From a phage, in the NCBI GenBank assembly GCA_024449565.1, contig GCA_024449565.1_4810.1: 64,000 nucleotides of DNA; one strand, 5' to 3'. This document shows, piece after piece, positions 56-60,483 of the stretch. Made by a program: the position numbers and the translations under genes. The notes below the pieces were generated by a model. The model searched no databases and was not told the origin of the DNA. It saw nothing but the letters and a program-made list of their open reading frames with translations. The first letter of the stretch is position 1; each line of letters starts with the position of its first letter.

Positions 56-150
56 TATAAAGTATCGCGGCAACGCGTATCATCCGTATCATCCGTAAGA
101 TTCTTTTGAAAACAACTACTTACTTGATACGGATGATACGTCATTATACG
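56..150. repeat. Iteron-like repeat element A
   Basis: TATAAAGTATCGCGGCAACGCGTATCATCCGTATCATCCGTAAGA (tandem CGTATCATC) followed by inverted copy TACGGATGATACG and CGTCATTATACG; near-identical element at about 14962-15090. Confidence 0.6.
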
Positions 151-3728: not shown

Positions 3729-3757
3729 TTTGCTTTTGTATCATTTTGAGTTATATT
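3729..3757 (+). promoter_or_regulatory. sigma70-like promoter TTTGCT-17-TATATT
   Basis: Hexamers with 17-bp spacer about 30 nt upstream of the 3786 ATG. Confidence 0.4.
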
Positions 3758-3785
3758 TTAGTTAACCAAACGAAAGGAGATTGAA

Positions 3786-4202
3786 ATGAGCACAACAATT
3801 GTATTTGTCGTCCTACACAACGGCGAAGTCGTTAACGTATGCGAATATGAAGAACTGGCAAAGGCCACTGCTGCGAGATACGAAGGTGCTACTATTGACC
3901 CGTGGATTTTAGATGCGCGCAGCGTCTTGCAGGCGACTTTAGATGAGTGGTTGTTGGGTCGCAAGGTCTATCCAGTAGACAACATCGACTCAATTCAAGG
4001 CGAAACAGTATACTTTGAAGATGAATGCGTTCGCGGCATCGGCAAATTTATGGGATTGTGCCCATCTTCATCCAAAAATAAATTCTATCGTATTCAAGTT
4101 GAAGAAAACGATATGTTTGATAAAGTCACGCGCTCGATTGTTCCTGGCGGCGGAACTCCAATCTTTATGGCAGAATCAGACATCAAGGGGATTATCAAAT
4201 GA
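3786..4202 (+). CDS. hypothetical protein
   Basis: AAAGGAG SD 7 nt upstream of ATG; plus-strand gene inserted between minus-strand terL and portal. Confidence 0.5.
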   Translation: MSTTIVFVVLHNGEVVNVCEYEELAKATAARYEGATIDPWILDARSVLQATLDEWLLGRKVYPVDNIDSIQGETVYFEDECVRGIGKFMGLCPSSSKNKFYRIQVEENDMFDKVTRSIVPGGGTPIFMAESDIKGIIK

Positions 4203-6517: not shown

Positions 6518-6740
6518 ATTAACCTTAACGGTGCCAAAAGAAGTGCTAGACAAGGCATATGCAGATTCTGTAAAAGAATTAGCCGTAGTGCTTGGAATTG
6601 AAAGTGAATTCAACGTTCAGCTTCAATTCCTAAAAGATACTCTTCAAATCAAAGAGAATAGAGAGGCTGGCGGCGGTGCGCCTTTAGCTTTGGCAATAAT
6701 CTATGCGGGATTAATTTTGAAGTCTGGAGATGAACTGTGA
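6507..6740 (+). CDS. hypothetical protein
   Basis: Start trimmed to ATG MANELTL with GGAGTGGA SD. Confidence 0.4.
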   Translation: MANELTLTVPKEVLDKAYADSVKELAVVLGIESEFNVQLQFLKDTLQIKENREAGGGAPLALAIIYAGLILKSGDEL

Positions 6741-31873: not shown

Positions 31874-31874
31874 T

Positions 31875-31919
31875 TTGCTTTCTGCTTCAATGGGCGTATA
31901 CTTTAATCATTGAAGCAGA
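31875..31919 (+). promoter_or_regulatory. promoter TTTGCT-16-TATACT inside a 12-bp inverted repeat (operator-like)
   Basis: TCTGCTTCAATG (31881-31892) and CATTGAAGCAGA (31908-31919) flank the -10; no T-run, so not a typical terminator. Confidence 0.4.
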
Positions 31920-31939
31920 ACTCATAAGAGGAAACGAAA

Positions 31940-34078: not shown

Positions 34079-34125
34079 TTTACTTGTGCGTTTCGATGAG
34101 TTATATTTATCTCATCGAAACGAAG
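34079..34125 (+). promoter_or_regulatory. promoter TTTACT-17-TATATT with perfect 12-bp inverted-repeat operator
   Basis: CGTTTCGATGAG (34089-34100) and CTCATCGAAACG (34111-34122) flank the -10; related element at 41010-41055. Confidence 0.5.
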
Positions 34126-51370: not shown

Positions 51371-52642
51371 TCACACAAATTTAACGTTGATGAAGCCGCG
51401 CATAGTATTCGCCTTATCCCAAGGGTTGGCAATCCACTCGCTGCCGTAATCGGATGGATAATTTGGCGCTGCCTGTCCGCTTTTTACTGCTGCAATTTTG
51501 CAATCTTTGATATAAAGTCCTGGATATTCGCAGGATACTGCTGAAGCAATTTCAAAAGAAGATTGAGATTGACCCACTGCATATCCTTGCTCGCCGTTAA
51601 AATTGCCATTGCCGTAATTCAGTACAGCGGCAATAATAGACTCTGCATCAGCGGTCGCCGTTCCTCTTGAAACGGTTATGTCAACATACAAGTCATATAT
51701 CACTGCAGTATTAAATTTGACAAAATAAGACAGTTGCGATTCTTCGTCGACAACTTCTATTCCATCAGGCGAGTTGACTGGATCACCTTGATTAGCAGCG
51801 CCAAAGTCCCAAGGTTGACCGCCCATCTTCGCCTTGAATATCGTCTCCGCAAACACTTGCTTGTCAAATGTTCCGCTTGCGCACACCCAAACACCGTTAG
51901 GCGTTGAGAAGGTGATGCCGCGCACCGTTCCAGGCGCTCCTGTGTCGTTCTCAACGACCATCACAGATTCTACACCGTCGACCGACATGGCGCGAGCGCG
52001 AATGGCACCAAGCGATGCAATGCCCTGCTGGTAAAGACGCTTAACACGAGCGGCCTTTAATGCTCCGTCGCTCATGTATTGTGTTCCTGGCACGGTCGTT
52101 GTTGCCGACGTTGAATAAGTTCTTGACCATCCGATGACATCATAACCTTGCACCACTGTAAACTCTTCATCAGGCGCAACAGTGAATGATCCATAATCTT
52201 TTGACGCAAGAGTCATATTGCTTGTCTTGCCAGTCGAAGTGATTTGAACGTCTTCCAGAACATACCAGTATGTACCATTTGAATCAGTAAGAAGACTTCC
52301 AGCAGGAATTTCCAGCAGCGGCGTTCCCTCTGCAGTCACACCTTTCAACATCGTGCTTACGTTCTTTGTGCGCTCGATACCAAGAAGCGCCGCGATTGCA
52401 TCAAGATATACTCCATATGAGTAGTTAGGGTTGATGAGACTTCCCAATTCGGCATTGTTCTTCATCACTGAAGTTCTTGCCAACGTTTCTGTTGCGATTA
52501 GAGTGCCTTGCGGCGTCGAAGCATCAACATCAAGCCCGACCCCTAAAGACTCAATCCATTCACCTTGAACATCAGCCAATAAATCTGCCGTGTCAATGGT
52601 GATCACACCAGTGCTTACTATGTAAGAATATTGTGCACTCAT
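51371..52642 (-). CDS. baseplate J-like protein
   Basis: 423 aa; position and size fit the gpJ/gp47 family; recognised by gene order and general sequence character. Confidence 0.55.
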   Translation of the reverse strand: MSAQYSYIVSTGVITIDTADLLADVQGEWIESLGVGLDVDASTPQGTLIATETLARTSVMKNNAELGSLINPNYSYGVYLDAIAALLGIERTKNVSTMLKGVTAEGTPLLEIPAGSLLTDSNGTYWYVLEDVQITSTGKTSNMTLASKDYGSFTVAPDEEFTVVQGYDVIGWSRTYSTSATTTVPGTQYMSDGALKAARVKRLYQQGIASLGAIRARAMSVDGVESVMVVENDTGAPGTVRGITFSTPNGVWVCASGTFDKQVFAETIFKAKMGGQPWDFGAANQGDPVNSPDGIEVVDEESQLSYFVKFNTAVIYDLYVDITVSRGTATADAESIIAAVLNYGNGNFNGEQGYAVGQSQSSFEIASAVSCEYPGLYIKDCKIAAVKSGQAAPNYPSDYGSEWIANPWDKANTMRGFINVKFV

Positions 52643-53367
52643 TCTATCATATTCCCAGTTCTGTTTCCAGGCCCGTTACCGATATGCCCGTGAGTGGATA
52701 CATCAATGCCGCCGACCGTTGTGCCAGTCGGAAGCGTTGCCGTCGTTCCTTCTTTGCCTTCTATCCCACCATTGAATGTTGCCTTTCCATTTACTATCAA
52801 TTGTTGATCGATAGTGGTTATCGGGGTCTTGACGTTTACTCCAGCAGACGCAGTTATGTTTATTGAGTCATCGCTTAGTGCAATTCTCACAGCGCCGCTG
52901 AGGGATTGAATTACCATTGACCCTGCATCCTCTCCGCTTATGGTGTATTTTCGGAATACATCCGGTATGAACAGTCCATCAGCGAAAGTTTTTACACGGC
53001 CATTGGTAGGCGCGGTCGGCTTCAATTCTTCAAGGAATGTCGACAACTCGCGGTCGCCAGCGAATATCCAGCCCAAGTCGCCTTCCTTCAAAGGGAAGTT
53101 GATCACGAATCCGCCGCCGCCGATTGCCAGTACCGGAATTGACACCAAAGGTTGACGCTCCACTGGCTTATCATCAAGACTTACGAAATGAATAACAGGT
53201 TTTATGACTGCTAAATTTTTCTTGCGGTCATAAGATATTACTTGCGCAGGAATCATACCATCAGTGGTATACTTGCCACGGTCCAGCATTCCCTGAAGCG
53301 CGGCAAACATACTTGATTTGTCAGTTTGGTTGGGGCTTGTAAGTTGGGTTAACTTTTCTGCCATCAT
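52639..53367 (-). CDS. baseplate protein (spike/gpV-like, tentative)
   Basis: Start trimmed to ATG MMAEKL with AAGGAG SD; Gly-rich C-terminus; position upstream of J-like gene. Confidence 0.4.
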   Translation of the reverse strand: MMAEKLTQLTSPNQTDKSSMFAALQGMLDRGKYTTDGMIPAQVISYDRKKNLAVIKPVIHFVSLDDKPVERQPLVSIPVLAIGGGGFVINFPLKEGDLGWIFAGDRELSTFLEELKPTAPTNGRVKTFADGLFIPDVFRKYTISGEDAGSMVIQSLSGAVRIALSDDSINITASAGVNVKTPITTIDQQLIVNGKATFNGGIEGKEGTTATLPTGTTVGGIDVSTHGHIGNGPGNRTGNMIE

Positions 53368-53414
53368 AGACTCCTTATATCTGATCAACAAATTATAATC
53401 TATAAGGAGTCTAT
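53366..53414 (-). promoter_or_regulatory. 14-bp perfect inverted repeat sequestering the RBS and start codon
   Basis: ATAGACTCCTTATA (53366-53379) and TATAAGGAGTCTAT (53401-53414), 21-nt loop; the 3' arm on the mRNA contains the AAGGAG SD and the first two bases of the ATG. Confidence 0.5.
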
Positions 53415-53424
53415 AAGCAATATT

Positions 53425-53946
53425 TTAGCGATTTGACTTTGATTCTTTAATGGCAGCTTCGTTTGAGTAGGCTTCATTAAGTGATTTTGCTATTAAACCA
53501 TCAAACATGGCAAATGCATCACGCAGTGAATAGTATTCTTCCAACTCCTTTAAAGATGCAAGGCCGTTATTTATTAGACTTGCAACCATTGGCTCAAGAT
53601 AATTAGGCTCTACTGTCGGTGCATCCGCCAAGAATCTATTTGGAATTTTGGTGCTTTTCCAATCGCTAAGGAATCCAAAGTTGTGCTTTTTAACGGCTTC
53701 CATCAATACTTTCAACACAAGATTAGGCGGCAAGTGATTAGGAATACTTTTCACTTCCTCACTAATTACTTTTTCAGAATTAAGCCTTACTTTGGACCCG
53801 TCGTATTTGATTACATAACATTCACTCAATAATTCAAGTGGGGTTAATATACTTATGTCATCGACCATTTCAAATGCATCTATTGCGCTGAATTGATGAA
53901 TTTCATAAGTTACGCCAAACAAGTCGATTATTTTATTCTTTCTCAT
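53425..53946 (-). CDS. hypothetical tail/baseplate protein
   Basis: Tiled ORF within the tail module. Confidence 0.45.
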   Translation of the reverse strand: MRKNKIIDLFGVTYEIHQFSAIDAFEMVDDISILTPLELLSECYVIKYDGSKVRLNSEKVISEEVKSIPNHLPPNLVLKVLMEAVKKHNFGFLSDWKSTKIPNRFLADAPTVEPNYLEPMVASLINNGLASLKELEEYYSLRDAFAMFDGLIAKSLNEAYSNEAAIKESKSNR

Positions 53947-53948
53947 AT

Positions 53949-54821
53949 TTATGCCGATGGTGCAACGCCGCCCGTCACCGTAAATATATCATCACGACTC
54001 GCTAAATCATATTCAAGTTGCATGATGACAAATGTGGTGTCGTTCAAGCTTGGGTTTAAGACTGATTTGAATTTAACACCTTGTGCAAGCTTCAAATCTG
54101 CGTTATACATACAAGTGAAGTCTGCACCCCACTCGTTCCACATCGGTATTCCGACAAATTCCTCAATGACTGTAATCTGGTCTGGATTTAGAATTTTGTC
54201 TTTATCCTTAACAATTAACGTATCGTCATCAATGTATGCCGCGATTGAGTTGCGTTGATAGTTCTGGATCTCAAGCAGCAGCGCAGCAGCAACATATGTT
54301 GTTCTTCCTGGGTTCACAAGTCGCTGATTGTTAATCGACGTGTCACAAATAACAGTATCGATGCCCATTTGTTTTGCAGACCATTCCACAAACTCTTTGA
54401 AAGTCGGGTTGGATGGCGCGGCTTGAGTTATGAACTTCGTTCTGTTTATTTGGTTGGTGTAACAAGTGATTCTGATGACAATATTCGGCGGCGGTGCTGT
54501 GATCTCAACTGTCGTCACCTGTCCCTTGTATACCAAGTTGCTGCTGATTACGCTCCCTTCTCTGTATCCAGCTTCAATAGTCACGTTAACATAGTTCGCC
54601 GCCAACTGACCTTGATCACGCAGACGTTTGTTGAATGCCGTGAAGTTGGAAAGCAGGTACTCTCTCAAGTACCCTGTCAATCCTGCGACTTCAATCGTGG
54701 CCTTATTCTGAACGGAAAGTGCTGCCTTTTTGATTCGGCATCTAAGCATCAATCCTTCATCAAGCACTTGGCTTGTGCCATCCGGCATAGATAAGGTGAC
54801 TTTAAGGATTCTCTTTTTCAA
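53949..54821 (-). CDS. tail/baseplate protein (hub-like, tentative)
   Basis: 290-aa ORF immediately downstream of the tape measure gene. Confidence 0.4.
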   Translation of the reverse strand: MKKRILKVTLSMPDGTSQVLDEGLMLRCRIKKAALSVQNKATIEVAGLTGYLREYLLSNFTAFNKRLRDQGQLAANYVNVTIEAGYREGSVISSNLVYKGQVTTVEITAPPPNIVIRITCYTNQINRTKFITQAAPSNPTFKEFVEWSAKQMGIDTVICDTSINNQRLVNPGRTTYVAAALLLEIQNYQRNSIAAYIDDDTLIVKDKDKILNPDQITVIEEFVGIPMWNEWGADFTCMYNADLKLAQGVKFKSVLNPSLNDTTFVIMQLEYDLASRDDIFTVTGGVAPSA

Positions 54822-54825
54822 ATTA

Positions 54826-57006
54826 TCACCACTTCAAAGGTGTAGCAGTAAGGTTGTTTATGTCATTGATATCATCTTGTTCAAGCACTCGTTTCGTTTC
54901 GAATGCCGTGCTGCGTGGGTCTTGAGCGCCGTTGACGTTGATGACAACGTTTTTCTGACCCATAGTAATATCACGCCCACCAGGTCGACTATTCGCGGAA
55001 AGGTCGCCGCCGTATTTCTGGAATGCCTCAAGTTGGAATGCAGCAAGACGAGCATTCTTCATCGCTTCGGCTTGAATGTTCGGTCTTACACCTGGAGTTG
55101 AAGCCAGTTGCATGTTTTTAATATAATCCCTTTGCGTTCCAAGTTTAAGGTAAGTTTGAGCAAAGTCAATATCGCCTTTGTTAACTTGCCCTTGCATCAA
55201 CTGCTCAACTGGCACGTTTAGGTATCCTGCAACGGCTTCTTGCAACTGTCTGTATTGCACCGTTTGGCGGGATTGGCCTTGTACTGGTGCATAACGGCCC
55301 TTTGGTGCTTCCGCTCCGCTACCGCTAAGTACTGGAGTAACTGGTGCACCTTGCGGCGCTCCTGTGGCGTATTCTCCATTCGCCTGTCGGTCGAGAGCGG
55401 CCATTACCTTGCCAGGGTATGCACGGGTGTTCTTTCCCCATCCGCTTCGGTCATATCCACCGTGATACATAGTCAGCGCAAGATTCCAATCGCCATTGGC
55501 AGCTGTTAAATATTCCTTGAGAAGTTGAGCGCCGCCCATAATGTTTTGTCTTGGGTCGTTACCGTCTGTGATACCAAGTCCCTTGAAGTTGGAAGGCATT
55601 ATTTGCATCAATCCGGTCGCGCCTGCTCCGCTCACAGCGTTAGGGTTGAATCCAGATTCGACTTCTGTGACGGCCTTCATCATCGCAACAGGGATTCCAT
55701 AACGCTTGGAAGCTTCCTCATAGATTGAGTCATATGCAGTCGGATTTCCTGACCCCAAGTTGTTGCCTACGGTCGCACCAGTGCTTAGTGCTGGTGTGCC
55801 AGGCATTGCGGATTGGCCTGCGCTTCGTCCTATCTCACCAGCCCATGCAGCCCACGCTTGTCGCTCATCAATAACACCAGCAAAGGTTGAAACGGCGCTT
55901 GAAAACAGGTTGATGTCGCGAGTGAAAAGTGCTTGCGCAGAGCGTTGTTCAGCCGCGTTTTGCTCCTGGTTCCTCTGGCGCTTCACATCGCCGTCAGCCA
56001 TCTGAGTTATCCATCTATCAACGGCACGCTCGTGACGCTCGTTAACAGCCGCCTGTTTATCGAACGGGTGTTTCAAATCAGCGATGAAATTGTCGACAAA
56101 TTCAGACCATCCATCAGACATCCTTTGGAACATCATCTGGAATCCTTCGACTGTATCGGCAGTCTTGCTGACAAGCGTCGAGAATGCTGGCATCACGTTC
56201 TCGCCGATTACCAGTTCAATGCGTCGCCAGTCTTCTTGAATTTGGCCCATGCTGTTTCGTATCGTTTCAAGCGCAGCCTGCTGTCTTTGCAGCTTCGCCG
56301 TTTCTTCGTCGCTTATACGGGTGCTTTCTTTGACTGATTGATTTCGCTCACGAAGCGCACGGACTTCATCGGCGGTAAAACCTGCCAGAGCACCAATAGC
56401 ACGAGCGGTTTGCTCATTCACACTTCTCAGCTTTGTGCCAATTTCATCAAGCAGCTGGTTTGTGTCTTTGATGCCGCCGTTACTGTTGAAAGGACTGGTC
56501 CCCATCTTGTTCAGCAGCAAGTTATCCTTGTTCATCACATCTGGGTTGGTGTATGCGTTGAATGCGAGATTAGAAGCCTTGCTGATTAAATCCCTTGACC
56601 CTTGCGCACCAAGAACTCCGCCTGAACTTTCATTCAATTGTCGCTGTAATTGCTCTACGCCAATTGGTGAAAGACCTGCTTCAAATCCAAGCTTCCTTTG
56701 CGCTTCGTATTCTTTTCGAACATCAACGATAGATTTGACTACGACAGCCAATCCTGCGACAACAGGGACGAGCGCGGCAAAGCGATAAGTAAGCCGCGCA
56801 AGGATTCCGTCAATAGACCCCAGTTCAGCTGTGAGAGGCTTCAACTCACCAAACACATCCTTGAATGCTCCAGTGAAGTCTTTGCCAGCGGACTTTGCCT
56901 TTTTGTTTGTCTGATCAACCTTATCTTGCAATTGCTCAAGACGATTGATGGACTCTTTCAAGTCCACCGTATATTGAAGAACAAATTTTTCTAATGAGTC
57001 AGACAC
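54826..57006 (-). CDS. tail tape measure protein with lytic transglycosylase (SLT) domain
   Basis: Coiled-coil-rich N-terminal two-thirds; C-terminal EVESGFNPNAVSGAGATGLMQIM SLT motif; GTG start with AAGGGG SD. Confidence 0.65.
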   Translation of the reverse strand: MSDSLEKFVLQYTVDLKESINRLEQLQDKVDQTNKKAKSAGKDFTGAFKDVFGELKPLTAELGSIDGILARLTYRFAALVPVVAGLAVVVKSIVDVRKEYEAQRKLGFEAGLSPIGVEQLQRQLNESSGGVLGAQGSRDLISKASNLAFNAYTNPDVMNKDNLLLNKMGTSPFNSNGGIKDTNQLLDEIGTKLRSVNEQTARAIGALAGFTADEVRALRERNQSVKESTRISDEETAKLQRQQAALETIRNSMGQIQEDWRRIELVIGENVMPAFSTLVSKTADTVEGFQMMFQRMSDGWSEFVDNFIADLKHPFDKQAAVNERHERAVDRWITQMADGDVKRQRNQEQNAAEQRSAQALFTRDINLFSSAVSTFAGVIDERQAWAAWAGEIGRSAGQSAMPGTPALSTGATVGNNLGSGNPTAYDSIYEEASKRYGIPVAMMKAVTEVESGFNPNAVSGAGATGLMQIMPSNFKGLGITDGNDPRQNIMGGAQLLKEYLTAANGDWNLALTMYHGGYDRSGWGKNTRAYPGKVMAALDRQANGEYATGAPQGAPVTPVLSGSGAEAPKGRYAPVQGQSRQTVQYRQLQEAVAGYLNVPVEQLMQGQVNKGDIDFAQTYLKLGTQRDYIKNMQLASTPGVRPNIQAEAMKNARLAAFQLEAFQKYGGDLSANSRPGGRDITMGQKNVVINVNGAQDPRSTAFETKRVLEQDDINDINNLTATPLKW

Positions 57007-57427: not shown

Positions 57428-57988
57428 TTATATTCCTACTGTTGATTTTATTTTATTATATAACGAACTCACAGTTGTAGTCAAACTGACTGGCTCTTTA
57501 ATAGCCACGCCATTTGACGATTCATCTGCGGACTGTTTAGGGTCAAAGCTTCCTTGAATACTAAATGACGTCTGTTCAAATGTTATTACAATTGAGACTC
57601 CATTCAGGTTTTCTTCTGACTGAGTTATTTCGACATCAGACATCGACATTTTGCTTGCAATTATGCTTCGAGAAGTTATTGAAAATGTAACTTCATCATT
57701 GTCGAATGTATTAATTATGTTTTCAATAGTCGATTGGTCATTGCAAATTACGTTTAGCGCCATGTGCGCTGGCATTATTACTTTTGCCGCCTGTAGATTG
57801 CTTACTGAGGATATGCTTGATACTTCCACCACCTGCATTGCCGTTCCAGCAAGTGGAAATTGAGTGGTTTCTGCTGGTGATGTTATTTCTGCAGATACTG
57901 GAGAAAGCTTTGTCCATACAGGAATCCCTGTTGACTCATTCGTTATGGTCAAAGATTGACCAGAGAGCAGAATCGAAACAAAGTCCAT
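57428..57988 (-). CDS. hypothetical tail protein
   Basis: Tiled ORF within the tail module. Confidence 0.4.
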   Translation of the reverse strand: MDFVSILLSGQSLTITNESTGIPVWTKLSPVSAEITSPAETTQFPLAGTAMQVVEVSSISSVSNLQAAKVIMPAHMALNVICNDQSTIENIINTFDNDEVTFSITSRSIIASKMSMSDVEITQSEENLNGVSIVITFEQTSFSIQGSFDPKQSADESSNGVAIKEPVSLTTTVSSLYNKIKSTVGI

Positions 57989-60436: not shown

Positions 60437-60483
60437 TACAGATTCCTCTCAGAGAGATGGCCGCCAGTTACGGCGGCAATTAT

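What the first reader, a model, noticed from the sequence alone, without database searches (positions are those of the whole stretch)
53366..53414. Perfect 14-bp hairpin that buries the ribosome-binding site and start codon of a baseplate gene
The inverted repeat ATAGACTCCTTATA / TATAAGGAGTCTAT sits between the 53425 gene stop and the 53367 start. In the minus-strand mRNA its 3' arm contains the AAGGAG SD and the first bases of the ATG. This suggests translational repression or coupling, or an RNase III processing site.
Basis: seen in the sequence. Interest (0 to 1): 0.5.

Follow-up and report, generated by a model that had tools for sequence, protein, structure and literature searches.

The report
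Promoter nested inside an RBS-masking hairpin
The hairpin is real and does bury the ribosome-binding site of a phage baseplate-spike gene, but a conserved promoter sits in its loop, so the block should apply only to RNA reading through from upstream, a design known from phage T4 and not yet reported for this phage group.

Summary
The window is a Wifcevirus, an E. coli myovirus distantly related to Pseudomonas Pbunavirus. The 14-bp perfect inverted repeat (53366-53379 / 53401-53414) is confirmed. On the minus-strand RNA it extends to 16 bp (-23.2 kcal/mol, z -6.4). It pairs the AAGGAG Shine-Dalgarno and both candidate ATGs of the baseplate central-spike gene.

TTGCTT (53420-53415), a 17-nt spacer and TATAAT (53397-53392) place the 5' arm in the spacer and the -10 in the loop. 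RNA started there (about 53385) lacks the 5' arm and has an open leader.

In Pbunavirus 14-1, the same gap between orthologous genes holds a published, mapped and GFP-validated promoter (P018). Across about 30 distinct relatives the -10 is conserved. In at least 10 lineages, unrelated stems pair the ribosome-binding site only with bases upstream of the predicted start site.

The best reading is transcript-specific masking, as at T4 genes e, soc, 49 and I-TevI. Read-through RNA is silent for the spike gene and promoter-initiated RNA is translated. No transcript or translation data exist for this phage.

This is a new member of a known kind, of moderate interest.

The parts
53425..53946 (-). Upstream gene (173 aa, PHROG 4774). 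It is the ortholog of 14-1 gp41. Its TAA stop is at 53427-53425.
   Evidence: ORF list. PHROG match. 41% identity to 14-1 gp41.
53415..53420 (-). -35-like hexamer TTGCTT (TTG matches the consensus), 17 nt upstream of the -10.
   Evidence: Read from the sequence. It is invariant in all 29 Wifcevirus records. Many relatives have TTTACT or TTTACC at this position. The consensus scanner did not list it because it needs 4 of 6 matches in each hexamer.
53401..53416 (-). 5' arm of the hairpin (core 53414-53401, extended to 53416). It carries the anti-SD sequence CUCCUU. The core arm fills the first 14 nt of the 17-nt promoter spacer (53414-53398); the two extension bases overlap the -35 hexamer.
53392..53397 (-). 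Perfect -10 hexamer TATAAT, located in the hairpin loop.
   Evidence: A TATAAT or 5-of-6 variant lies 29-38 nt upstream of the ATG in 27 of 31 distinct homologous gaps. The orthologous TATACT in 14-1 drives the mapped TSS P018.
53384..53386 (-). Predicted transcription start (6-8 nt after the -10). It would give a leader of about 20 nt that lacks the 5' arm.
   Evidence: Inference from the -10 position and from 14-1, where the TSS lies 8 nt after the -10 and the leader is 19 nt. The predicted leader 53385-53345 is unstructured: -2.2 kcal/mol with an open centroid.
53364..53379 (-). 3' arm of the hairpin (core 53379-53366, extended to 53364). It contains the SD AAGGAG (53376-53371), the first ATG (53367-53365) and the A of the second ATG.
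   Evidence: 14 of the 16 ribosome-binding-site bases are paired in the minimum-energy structure.
52639..53364 (-). Baseplate central-spike gene (241 aa, gpV/gp138-like). Its likely start is the ATG at 53364.
   Evidence: PF18352 match. 44% identity to 14-1 gp42. Mansfield annotates this start.
51371..52642 (-). Baseplate J-like gene. Its start overlaps the spike gene's stop (ATGA), so it is probably translationally coupled to the spike gene.
   Evidence: ORF list. PF04865 match. 14-1 TU018 covers gp42 plus gp43.
57455..57484 (-). Upstream sigma70-type promoter TTGACT-18-TATAAT, in front of the 138-aa gene. It is the probable source of transcripts that read through the hairpin.
   Evidence: Promoter scan, 11 of 12 matches. 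Sequence. The 138-aa gene is 53% identical to 14-1 gp38, whose mapped promoter P017 lies at the same relative place. No convincing terminator lies between this promoter and the hairpin.

Best explanation
The 57-60-nt gap before the baseplate-spike gene holds two overlapping signals: an internal sigma70-type promoter and an RNA hairpin.

The promoter is TTGCTT, a 17-nt spacer and TATAAT, with a start site near 53385.

The hairpin's 5' arm (an anti-SD sequence) lies inside the promoter spacer. Its loop holds the -10 and the start site. Its 3' arm is the ribosome-binding site and start codon of the spike gene.

Transcripts arriving from upstream, most likely from the promoter at 57484, carry both arms. 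They fold into a helix of about -23 kcal/mol that keeps the 30S subunit off the spike gene. The coupled baseplate-J gene is probably silenced with it.

Transcripts that start at the internal promoter lack the 5' arm, have an unstructured leader of about 20 nt, and are translated.

The net effect is that spike-gene expression is set by its own promoter and is insulated from read-through, without a terminator.

What is shown and what is inferred:
- Shown: the structure, the promoter motifs, their conservation, co-variation of the stems, and promoter activity at the orthologous site in phage 14-1.
- Inferred: promoter activity and start site in this phage, the existence of read-through RNA, and the difference in translation.
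For: Structure:
- The inverted repeat is perfect over 14 bp and extends to 16 bp. It folds at -23.2 kcal/mol with z = -6.4.
- Opening the ribosome-binding site (-13..+4) costs 22-24 kcal/mol in read-through RNA and 5.8 in RNA from the predicted start site. With a shuffled 5' part the cost is 7.7-8.2 +/- 1.8, and 0 of 60 shuffles reach the observed value.
- It is the most masked of 91 gene starts in the window.

Promoter:
- TTGCTT-17-TATAAT is read directly from the sequence.
- Of 31 distinct homologous gaps in relatives, 21 carry a perfect TATAAT and 6 a 5-of-6 variant, 29-38 nt before the ATG. Many have TTTACT at the 17-nt spacing.

Experimental anchor:
- In Pbunavirus 14-1, the gap between the orthologs gp41 and gp42 holds TSS P018 at 28318. 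It lies 8 nt after TATACT and 19 nt before the ATG.
[quoted passage not shown] TU018 covers gp42 and gp43 (Putzeys et al. 2024, PMC10914365 and its bioRxiv supplement).
- An imperfect hairpin, CCUGGGAAGGC/GCUUUCCCAUG, brackets that -10 and start site as well.

Co-variation:
- In 11 of 11 masking lineages, every partner of the ribosome-binding-site bases lies upstream of the predicted start site. The partner falls in the -35, the spacer or the -10 depending on the lineage.
- In a swap test over 21 lineages, the cognate 5' segment masks best in 9 (1 expected by chance). The cognate mean is 12.7 kcal/mol against 7.6 for non-cognate pairs, p = 9e-6.
- Stem differences between close relatives keep pairing through G.U on the sense strand.
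- The sense strand folds better than the antisense strand, p = 0.01, n = 32.

Selection:
- The gap is identical in 23 of 29 Wifcevirus genomes although the flanks differ by about 9%. The promoter hexamers, 5' arm, SD and ATG never vary.
Against: - No transcript 5'-end, RNA-structure or translation data exist for any Wifcevirus. The start site is extrapolated from a relative whose spike protein is 44% identical.
- The -35 matches only 3 of 6 positions, and the generic promoter scan did not list this promoter.
- About half of the related lineages keep the promoter but show no masking above the shuffled control. Masking is therefore not a universal requirement.
- Two other perfect inverted repeats in this genome bracket a -10 in the same way but do not mask their genes' ribosome-binding sites. 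Such hairpins may therefore have another, or an additional, role.
- Within Wifcevirus and within Pbunavirus the arms are invariant, so there is no within-genus covariation.
- A column-based consensus fold across genera failed because the stems are out of register.
- Read-through transcripts are inferred, not observed. In 14-1 the long reads from upstream promoters stop early.
Confidence: 0.6

Rival explanations
1. The hairpin is mainly an RNA processing or stability element that exists only on read-through RNA. It could be an RNase III site or a barrier to 3' exonucleases that separates the upstream tape-measure/hub message from the spike message. Masking of the ribosome-binding site would be secondary.
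For: - The genome has two more perfect inverted repeats (31880-31920 and 34089-34122). Each has its 5' arm in a promoter spacer and the -10 in the loop, yet neither masks a ribosome-binding site: 4.4 vs 4.2 and 4.6 vs 3.7 kcal/mol. This points to a shared role other than masking.
- In context the helix is long: 16 pairs plus a 5-bp inner helix.
Against: - At the spike gene, the constant pairing partner across at least 10 lineages is the ribosome-binding site, while the 5' partner moves relative to the promoter.
- Cognate-specific masking is strong in the swap test.
- In this window the 3' arm starts 12 nt after the -10, against 3-4 nt in the other two cases. That shift places it exactly over the SD and ATG.
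- No cleavage data exist.
Confidence: 0.2
2. Every spike mRNA carries the hairpin, which lowers translation constitutively or makes it depend on ribosomes finishing the upstream gene (coupling).
For: - The hairpin is stable and covers the SD and ATG.
- The upstream stop codon is only 8-10 nt from the stem.
- The promoter has not been demonstrated in this phage.
Against: - The -10 is perfect, is conserved across genera, and marks a mapped, validated promoter at the orthologous site in 14-1.
- By my inference from ribosome footprint sizes, a ribosome at the stop codon would reach only the outer 1-2 pairs.
- All other genes of the 18-kb module are packed with gaps of 12 nt or less, apart from one 47-nt gap (60437-60483). 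This 57-60-nt gap therefore looks like a break in coupling rather than a device for it.
Confidence: 0.1
3. The inverted repeat acts on DNA. It would be a palindromic operator on both sides of the -10, bound by a dimeric regulator that controls the internal promoter.
For: - The core is a perfect Watson-Crick palindrome and the arms flank the -10.
- Two other promoters in the genome are bracketed in the same way.
Against: - The three repeats share no half-site sequence.
- Apart from the two arms themselves, the 14-mer has no other match with fewer than 2 mismatches in the window; the nine looser matches are mostly SD-like.
- In relatives the stems contain G.U pairs, and the sense strand folds better than the antisense strand.
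- The arm positions shift relative to the promoter but always include the ribosome-binding site.
- Arms of 14 bp separated by 21 bp are an unusual geometry for an operator.
Confidence: 0.05
4. The hairpin is an intrinsic transcription terminator that ends the upstream operon.
For: It is a stable stem-loop placed just after a gene end.
Against: - No U-tract follows it; the next bases are GAUGGCAG.
- Only 4 of the 14 core pairs are G-C.
- The terminator scan does not list it.
- The 14-1 data show no termination site between positions 6661 and 35525.
Confidence: 0.02

Closest known systems
Phage T4 gene e (lysozyme), and also soc, gene 49, I-TevI/II/III, segB and Aeh1 mobE: a promoter nested in an RBS-sequestering hairpin (Uzan & Miller 2010, PMC3014915; Edgell et al. 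2010, PMC2988022)
   Same: A stable stem-loop sequesters the SD and/or AUG on longer, upstream-initiated transcripts. [quoted passage not shown] The DNA that encodes the 5' strand overlaps the promoter.
   Different: - The T4 promoters are late (gp55, TATAAATA) or middle promoters, so the device gives temporal control. Here the promoter is of the host sigma70 type (-35/-10), and no temporal class is known.
- The controlled gene is a baseplate spike inside a structural operon, not a lysis, decoration or homing-endonuclease gene.
- There is no sequence or phylogenetic relationship.
- The T4 cases have been shown by experiment and this one has not.
Pseudomonas phage 14-1 promoter P018 / transcription unit TU018 (Putzeys et al. 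2024, PMC10914365)
   Same: It lies at the orthologous position, between the gp41 and gp42 orthologs. It has a -10 about 32 nt before the ATG, a leader of about 20 nt and a shared AUCAGA motif in the leader. Its transcription unit covers the spike and baseplate-J genes.
   Different: - The 14-1 stem is shorter and imperfect: 10 of 11 pairs, including one G.U. Masking is weaker, 11.4 vs 5.1 kcal/mol.
- The paper's main text describes the promoter only and does not mention a hairpin or ribosome-binding-site masking at P018.
Phage lambda sib retroregulation of int (from my own knowledge, not checked here)
   Same: An RNA structure is complete on only one class of transcript, defined by where transcription starts or ends. 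Two mRNAs for the same gene therefore have different fates.
   Different: sib lies downstream of the gene and acts through RNase III cleavage and 3' decay, not through masking of the ribosome-binding site.

Membership tests
T4 gene e-type transcript-specific RBS masking | A stable RNA helix that sequesters the SD and/or start codon | tested here: met
   The 16-bp helix folds at -23.2 kcal/mol. 14 of the 16 ribosome-binding-site bases are paired. Opening energy is 22-24 kcal/mol against 7.7-8.2 for the shuffled control.
T4 gene e-type transcript-specific RBS masking | A promoter whose start site lies between the arms, so that its transcripts lack the 5' strand | tested here: met
   This is met at the level of sequence and orthology only. 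TTGCTT-17-TATAAT has its -10 in the loop. The -10 is conserved in 27 of 31 distinct gaps. The orthologous TSS is mapped and the promoter validated in 14-1. The start site in this phage has not been mapped.
T4 gene e-type transcript-specific RBS masking | Longer transcripts from upstream promoters that read through the hairpin | tested here: inconclusive
   An upstream promoter lies at 57484-57455 (11 of 12 matches), at the position of 14-1 P017. No convincing terminator lies in between. No transcript data are available.
T4 gene e-type transcript-specific RBS masking | The long RNA is translated poorly and the short RNA well | not testable with these tools
   Only thermodynamic predictions are available: the leader from the predicted start site folds at -2.2 kcal/mol with an open centroid.
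T4 gene e-type transcript-specific RBS masking | The nested promoter belongs to a phage-specific late or middle class, giving temporal control | tested here: not met
   The nested promoter has a sigma70-type -35 and -10. There is no TATAAATA in the gap. 14-1 P018 works in uninfected E. coli and P. aeruginosa. So this element works like the T4 device but is not the same temporal switch.
Bacterial sigma70-type promoter | A -10 TATAAT and a -35 TTGACA-like hexamer separated by 16-18 nt | tested here: met
   The -10 matches 6 of 6, the -35 matches 3 of 6 (TTG), and the spacer is 17 nt. It falls below the scan tool's threshold of 4 of 6 per hexamer.
Intrinsic (Rho-independent) terminator | A G+C-rich stem followed directly by a U-tract | tested here: not met
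   Only 4 of 14 pairs are G-C, and GAUGGCAG follows the stem. The scan does not list it.
RNase III processing site | A double-stranded RNA of about two helical turns that is cleaved by RNase III | not testable with these tools
   The helix has 16 pairs plus an inner 5-bp helix. Cleavage cannot be predicted reliably from sequence.
Any curated RNA family (Rfam 15) | A match to a covariance model | tested here: not met
   No match at E <= 1 in 52900-53900 on either strand.
Palindromic operator of a DNA-binding regulator | A shared half-site that recurs at co-regulated promoters, with symmetry kept at the DNA level | tested here: not met
   Apart from the two arms themselves, the 14-mer has no other match with fewer than 2 mismatches in the window. 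The three promoter-bracketing repeats are unrelated in sequence. Relatives show G.U pairs and a bias toward the sense strand.

The most novel reading that the evidence does not exclude
Phages of the PB1-like group (Pbunavirus, Wifcevirus, Myosmarvirus, Pantoea phage Kyle, Salmonella phage PCSE1 and uncultured relatives) may use internal host-type promoters wrapped in hairpins as terminator-free insulators.

RNA reading through from the previous unit would be folded at each such promoter. At the spike gene this would silence translation. By my speculation it could then be cut, or terminated by Rho because it is untranslated. Each unit's output would then be set only by its own promoter.

The three promoter-bracketing perfect repeats in this genome (53.4 kb, 31.9 kb and 34.1 kb) would be instances of one general design. 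In that case the T4-like masking at the spike gene would be one use of it.
Probability: 0.3. Interest if true: 0.55.

Novelty: new member of a known kind. Interest (0 to 1): 0.42.

Why it matters
- It would extend a classic T4 regulatory trick to an unrelated myovirus lineage, and to host sigma70 promoters and a structural gene.
- That lineage includes Pbunavirus phages, which are widely used for therapy.
- It gives a concrete, easily tested explanation for the one large gap in the tail and baseplate operon.
- It predicts that spike and baseplate-J expression depends on the internal promoter alone. This matters for anyone re-engineering or refactoring these genomes, or reading their RNA-seq data, because transcript level would not equal translatable message.
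- The compact 55-nt promoter-plus-mask module could be used as a synthetic-biology part.

Tried and rejected
- **Rfam:** a search of 52900-53900 at E <= 1 found nothing.
- **Consensus folding:** a MAFFT plus RNAalifold fold of six cross-genus gaps gave no pairs, because the stems are out of register. I replaced it with opening-energy tests against shuffles and with the swap test.
- **Within-genus covariation:** in Wifcevirus only three single changes occur in the gap. One breaks the loop-proximal pair in Eco4M-7 and none is compensatory. In Pbunavirus the core is invariant.
- **Terminator reading:** rejected because there is no U-tract, the scan does not list it, and 14-1 has no termination site there.
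- **Antisense promoter:** ATTATAAT is its own reverse complement, so TATAAT also reads on the + strand. No usable -35 lies 16-18 nt upstream of it there, so I judged this unlikely by reading the sequence.
- **Enrichment of the arm sequence:** the 14-mer has 11 matches at up to 3 mismatches against 3.5 expected. This is explained by SD-like AAGGAG sites and is not a regulon.
- **Promoter annotations in Xanthomonas phage XcP1:** the annotations near its spike gene are pattern matches on the opposite strand and are irrelevant.
- **Literature:** searches found no transcriptome for any Wifcevirus and no earlier description of the hairpin.
- **PHROGs:** the search gave no family for the spike protein. 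Pfam did.

Full report
**Identity of the window**

Megablast of 52600-54000 gives 29 phage records at 90.7-99.4% identity. All are Wifcevirus, E. coli/Shigella myoviruses of about 68 kb. The literature describes this genus as a distant relative of Pseudomonas Pbunavirus (Humolli et al. 2025, PMC11990801).

The finding lies in the minus-strand tail and baseplate module. The gene order is: tape-measure/lytic tail protein (54826-57006), baseplate hub (53949-54821), a 173-aa protein (53425-53946), the gap, a 241-aa central spike (52639-53364; PF18352), and a baseplate-J protein (51371-52642). From 63952 down to 46178 all but two gaps are 12 nt or shorter. The exceptions are 60437-60483 (47 nt) and this one (57-60 nt).

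**The observation**

- The arms 53366-53379 and 53401-53414 are 14 nt, perfectly complementary and 21 nt apart.
- On the minus-strand RNA the helix extends to 16 pairs, with one U.G. It folds at -23.2 kcal/mol, against -8.1 +/- 2.4 for shuffles and -17.2 for the opposite strand.
- The 3' arm contains AAGGAG (53376-53371), the first ATG (53367) and the A of the second ATG (53364).
- The second ATG is the likelier start. It aligns with the MAEK N-terminus of Pantoea phage Kyle, it is the start annotated in Mansfield, and it lies 6 nt from the SD.
- Perfect repeats of this size are absent from shuffled windows.
- This ribosome-binding site is the most occluded of 91 gene starts in the window.

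Read 5' to 3' on the minus strand, the gap is: TAA, aatat, TTGCTT, ATAGACTCCTTATAGAT (17 nt), TATAAT, ttgttgatcaga, TATAAGGAGTCTATG, ATG.

This is a sigma70-type promoter. The core 5' arm fills the first 14 nt of its 17-nt spacer, and its perfect -10 lies in the loop. RNA polymerase starting 6-8 nt after the -10 (53386-53384) makes an RNA that lacks the 5' arm. That leader is essentially unstructured, at -2.2 kcal/mol with an open centroid.

The cost of opening the ribosome-binding site (-13..+4) is:
- 22-24 kcal/mol in read-through RNA;
- 5.8 kcal/mol in RNA from the predicted start site;
- 7.7-8.2 +/- 1.8 kcal/mol when the 5' part is shuffled, with 0 of 60 shuffles reaching the observed value.

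**Experimental anchor in a relative**

The two genes flanking the gap are orthologs of gp41 (41% identity) and gp42 (44%) of Pbunavirus 14-1. Putzeys et al. 2024 (PMC10914365; tables in the bioRxiv supplement) mapped a transcription start, 14-1 P018, at 28318 in that gap.

- The start lies 8 nt after TATACT and 19 nt before the gp42 ATG.
- P018 was classed as sigma70-type.
- TU018 covers gp42 and gp43.
- No termination site is listed between positions 6661 and 35525.
- An imperfect hairpin (CCUGGGAAGGC/GCUUUCCCAUG, one G.U and one mismatch) brackets that -10 and start site, and its 3' arm holds the AUG.
- The main text of the paper does not mention a hairpin at P018.

**Comparative evidence**

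I collected 80 IMG/VR loci and several GenBank phages that encode spike homologs.

- Relatives with about 40% identity or more keep a gap of 34-75 nt before the spike gene. In more distant relatives the genes overlap.
- Of 31 distinct gaps, 21 have a perfect TATAAT and 6 a 5-of-6 variant, 29-38 nt before the ATG. A TTTACT or TTTACC -35 often lies at the 17-nt spacing.
- Masking of the ribosome-binding site that no shuffle (0 of 60) or only a few (1-4 of 60) reached is seen in these lineages: Wifcevirus, Pantoea phage Kyle, Myosmarvirus (Serratia WR01 and a relative), L034 and Salmonella phage PCSE1, L038/L039, L051 and L033. It is weaker in Pbunavirus and Carpasinavirus.
- About half of the lineages keep the promoter but show no masking.
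- The stems are unrelated in sequence. In all 11 masking lineages, every partner of the ribosome-binding-site bases lies upstream of the predicted start site. The partner sits in the -35, the spacer or the -10 depending on the lineage.
- In a swap test over 21 lineages, the cognate 5' segment masks best in 9 (1 expected by chance). Cognate pairs average 12.7 kcal/mol and non-cognate pairs 7.6, p = 9e-6.
- Differences between close relatives are compatible with G.U pairing on the sense strand. Examples are WR01 vs L024 and L034 vs PCSE1. Between this window and Kyle there is a double change, U-A to C-G.
- Sense strands fold better than antisense strands, p = 0.01.
- Within Wifcevirus the gap is identical in 23 of 29 records, although the flanks differ by about 9%. 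The three changes seen spare the hexamers, the 5' arm, the SD and the ATG.
- Within Pbunavirus the core is invariant.

**Mechanism**

The best-supported reading is the design known from T4 genes e, soc, 49 and I-TevI/II/III, from T4 segB, and from Aeh1 mobE (PMC3014915 section 29; PMC2988022 section 12).

- Upstream-initiated RNA carries both strands of a helix that hides the ribosome-binding site.
- A promoter nested in the helix makes RNA that lacks the 5' strand, and this RNA is translated.
- Read-through RNA most likely comes from the strong promoter TTGACT-18-TATAAT at 57484-57455. That promoter sits before the ortholog of 14-1 gp38 (53% identity), exactly where 14-1 P017 was mapped.
- The baseplate-J start overlaps the spike stop (ATGA), so the mask probably silences both genes on read-through RNA.

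Unlike in T4, the nested promoter is of the host sigma70 type. The likely role is therefore to insulate two adjacent transcription units without a terminator, rather than to act as a temporal switch. That purpose is my inference.

**Complication and rivals**

The window has only four distinct perfect repeats of 12 bp or more with short loops. Two of the others, 31880-31920 and 34089-34122, also have the 5' arm in a promoter spacer (TTTGCT-17-TATACT and TTTACT-17-TATATT) and the -10 in the loop. Neither masks its gene's ribosome-binding site: 4.4 vs 4.2 and 4.6 vs 3.7 kcal/mol. Their arms are invariant within the genus.

Promoter-bracketing hairpins may therefore have a further role on read-through RNA, such as processing, a barrier to decay, or insulation. 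I keep this as the main rival or complement.

The other rivals fare as follows:
- A DNA operator is unlikely. The repeats share no half-site, relatives show G.U pairs, and the ribosome-binding site rather than the promoter is the constant partner.
- A terminator is excluded.

**Verdict**

- The structure is real and under selection.
- The promoter is very likely. My estimate is 0.85, based on orthology with a mapped and validated promoter.
- Transcript-specific masking is the most likely mechanism (0.6) but is untested in this phage.
- It is a new member of a known kind of regulation and has not been described for this phage group in the literature I could search.

Noticed in passing
window 31874-31920 (+): A second promoter-bracketing perfect repeat. 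TTTGCT-17-TATACT has the 5' arm TTCTGCTTCAATG in the spacer, the -10 in the 13-15-nt loop, and the 3' arm CATTGAAGCAGAA starting 4-5 nt after the -10. The SD of gene 31940 lies 6-7 nt downstream of the arm and is not masked (4.4 vs 4.2 kcal/mol). The arms are invariant in four Wifcevirus genomes.
   Followed up: partly
window 34079-34122 (+): A third instance. TTTACT-17-TATATT has a 12-bp perfect repeat, CGTTTCGATGAG/CTCATCGAAACG, bracketing the -10. It lies between the polynucleotide-kinase gene and the FabG-like gene. The ribosome-binding site of gene 34144 is not masked (4.6 vs 3.7 kcal/mol).
   Followed up: partly
window 76-140 (+): The longest perfect inverted repeat in the window: 16 bp, CGTATCATCCGTATCA/TGATACGGATGATACG, with a 33-nt loop. 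It lies near the window's left end in a region with no convincing gene. Its function is unknown.
   Followed up: no
window 57455-57484 (-): A strong sigma70-type promoter, TTGACT-18-TATAAT, is embedded in the 3' end of gene 57428-57988, about 22 nt before gene 57426. This is the same relative position as the mapped promoter 14-1 P017 before gp38.
   Followed up: partly
window 3729-3789 (+): A weaker copy of the masking design. TTTGCT-17-TATATT has a 9-bp repeat with two G.U pairs (TCATTTTGA/TTGAAATGA). Its 5' arm is in the spacer and its 3' arm covers the ATG of gene 3786. Opening energy is 6.6 vs 2.0 kcal/mol, and 10 of 60 shuffles do as well.
   Followed up: partly
whole window, e.g. 6026, 9253, 12585, 28167, 45324 (+); 26991, 12142, 3691 (-): Many candidate promoters use TTTACT or TTTGCT as the -35 hexamer. 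This resembles the CTTTACT -35 seen in many mapped sigma70-type promoters of Pbunavirus 14-1, so the promoter flavour may be shared across the two genera.
   Followed up: no
window 60437-60483 (-): This is the only other gap longer than 12 nt in the tail module, between the sheath and tube genes. It holds a G+C-rich hairpin (GCCGCC...GGCGGC) with no U-tract after it. It may be an mRNA stability element or an attenuator that sets the sheath-to-tube ratio.
   Followed up: no
L016 (NC_041865, phiKTN6) 1486 vs 1588: The RefSeq spike CDS of phiKTN6 is annotated from an internal start 34 codons downstream of the start used in 14-1. As a result, the promoter and hairpin gap looks like 157 nt in that record instead of 55 nt.
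   Followed up: no
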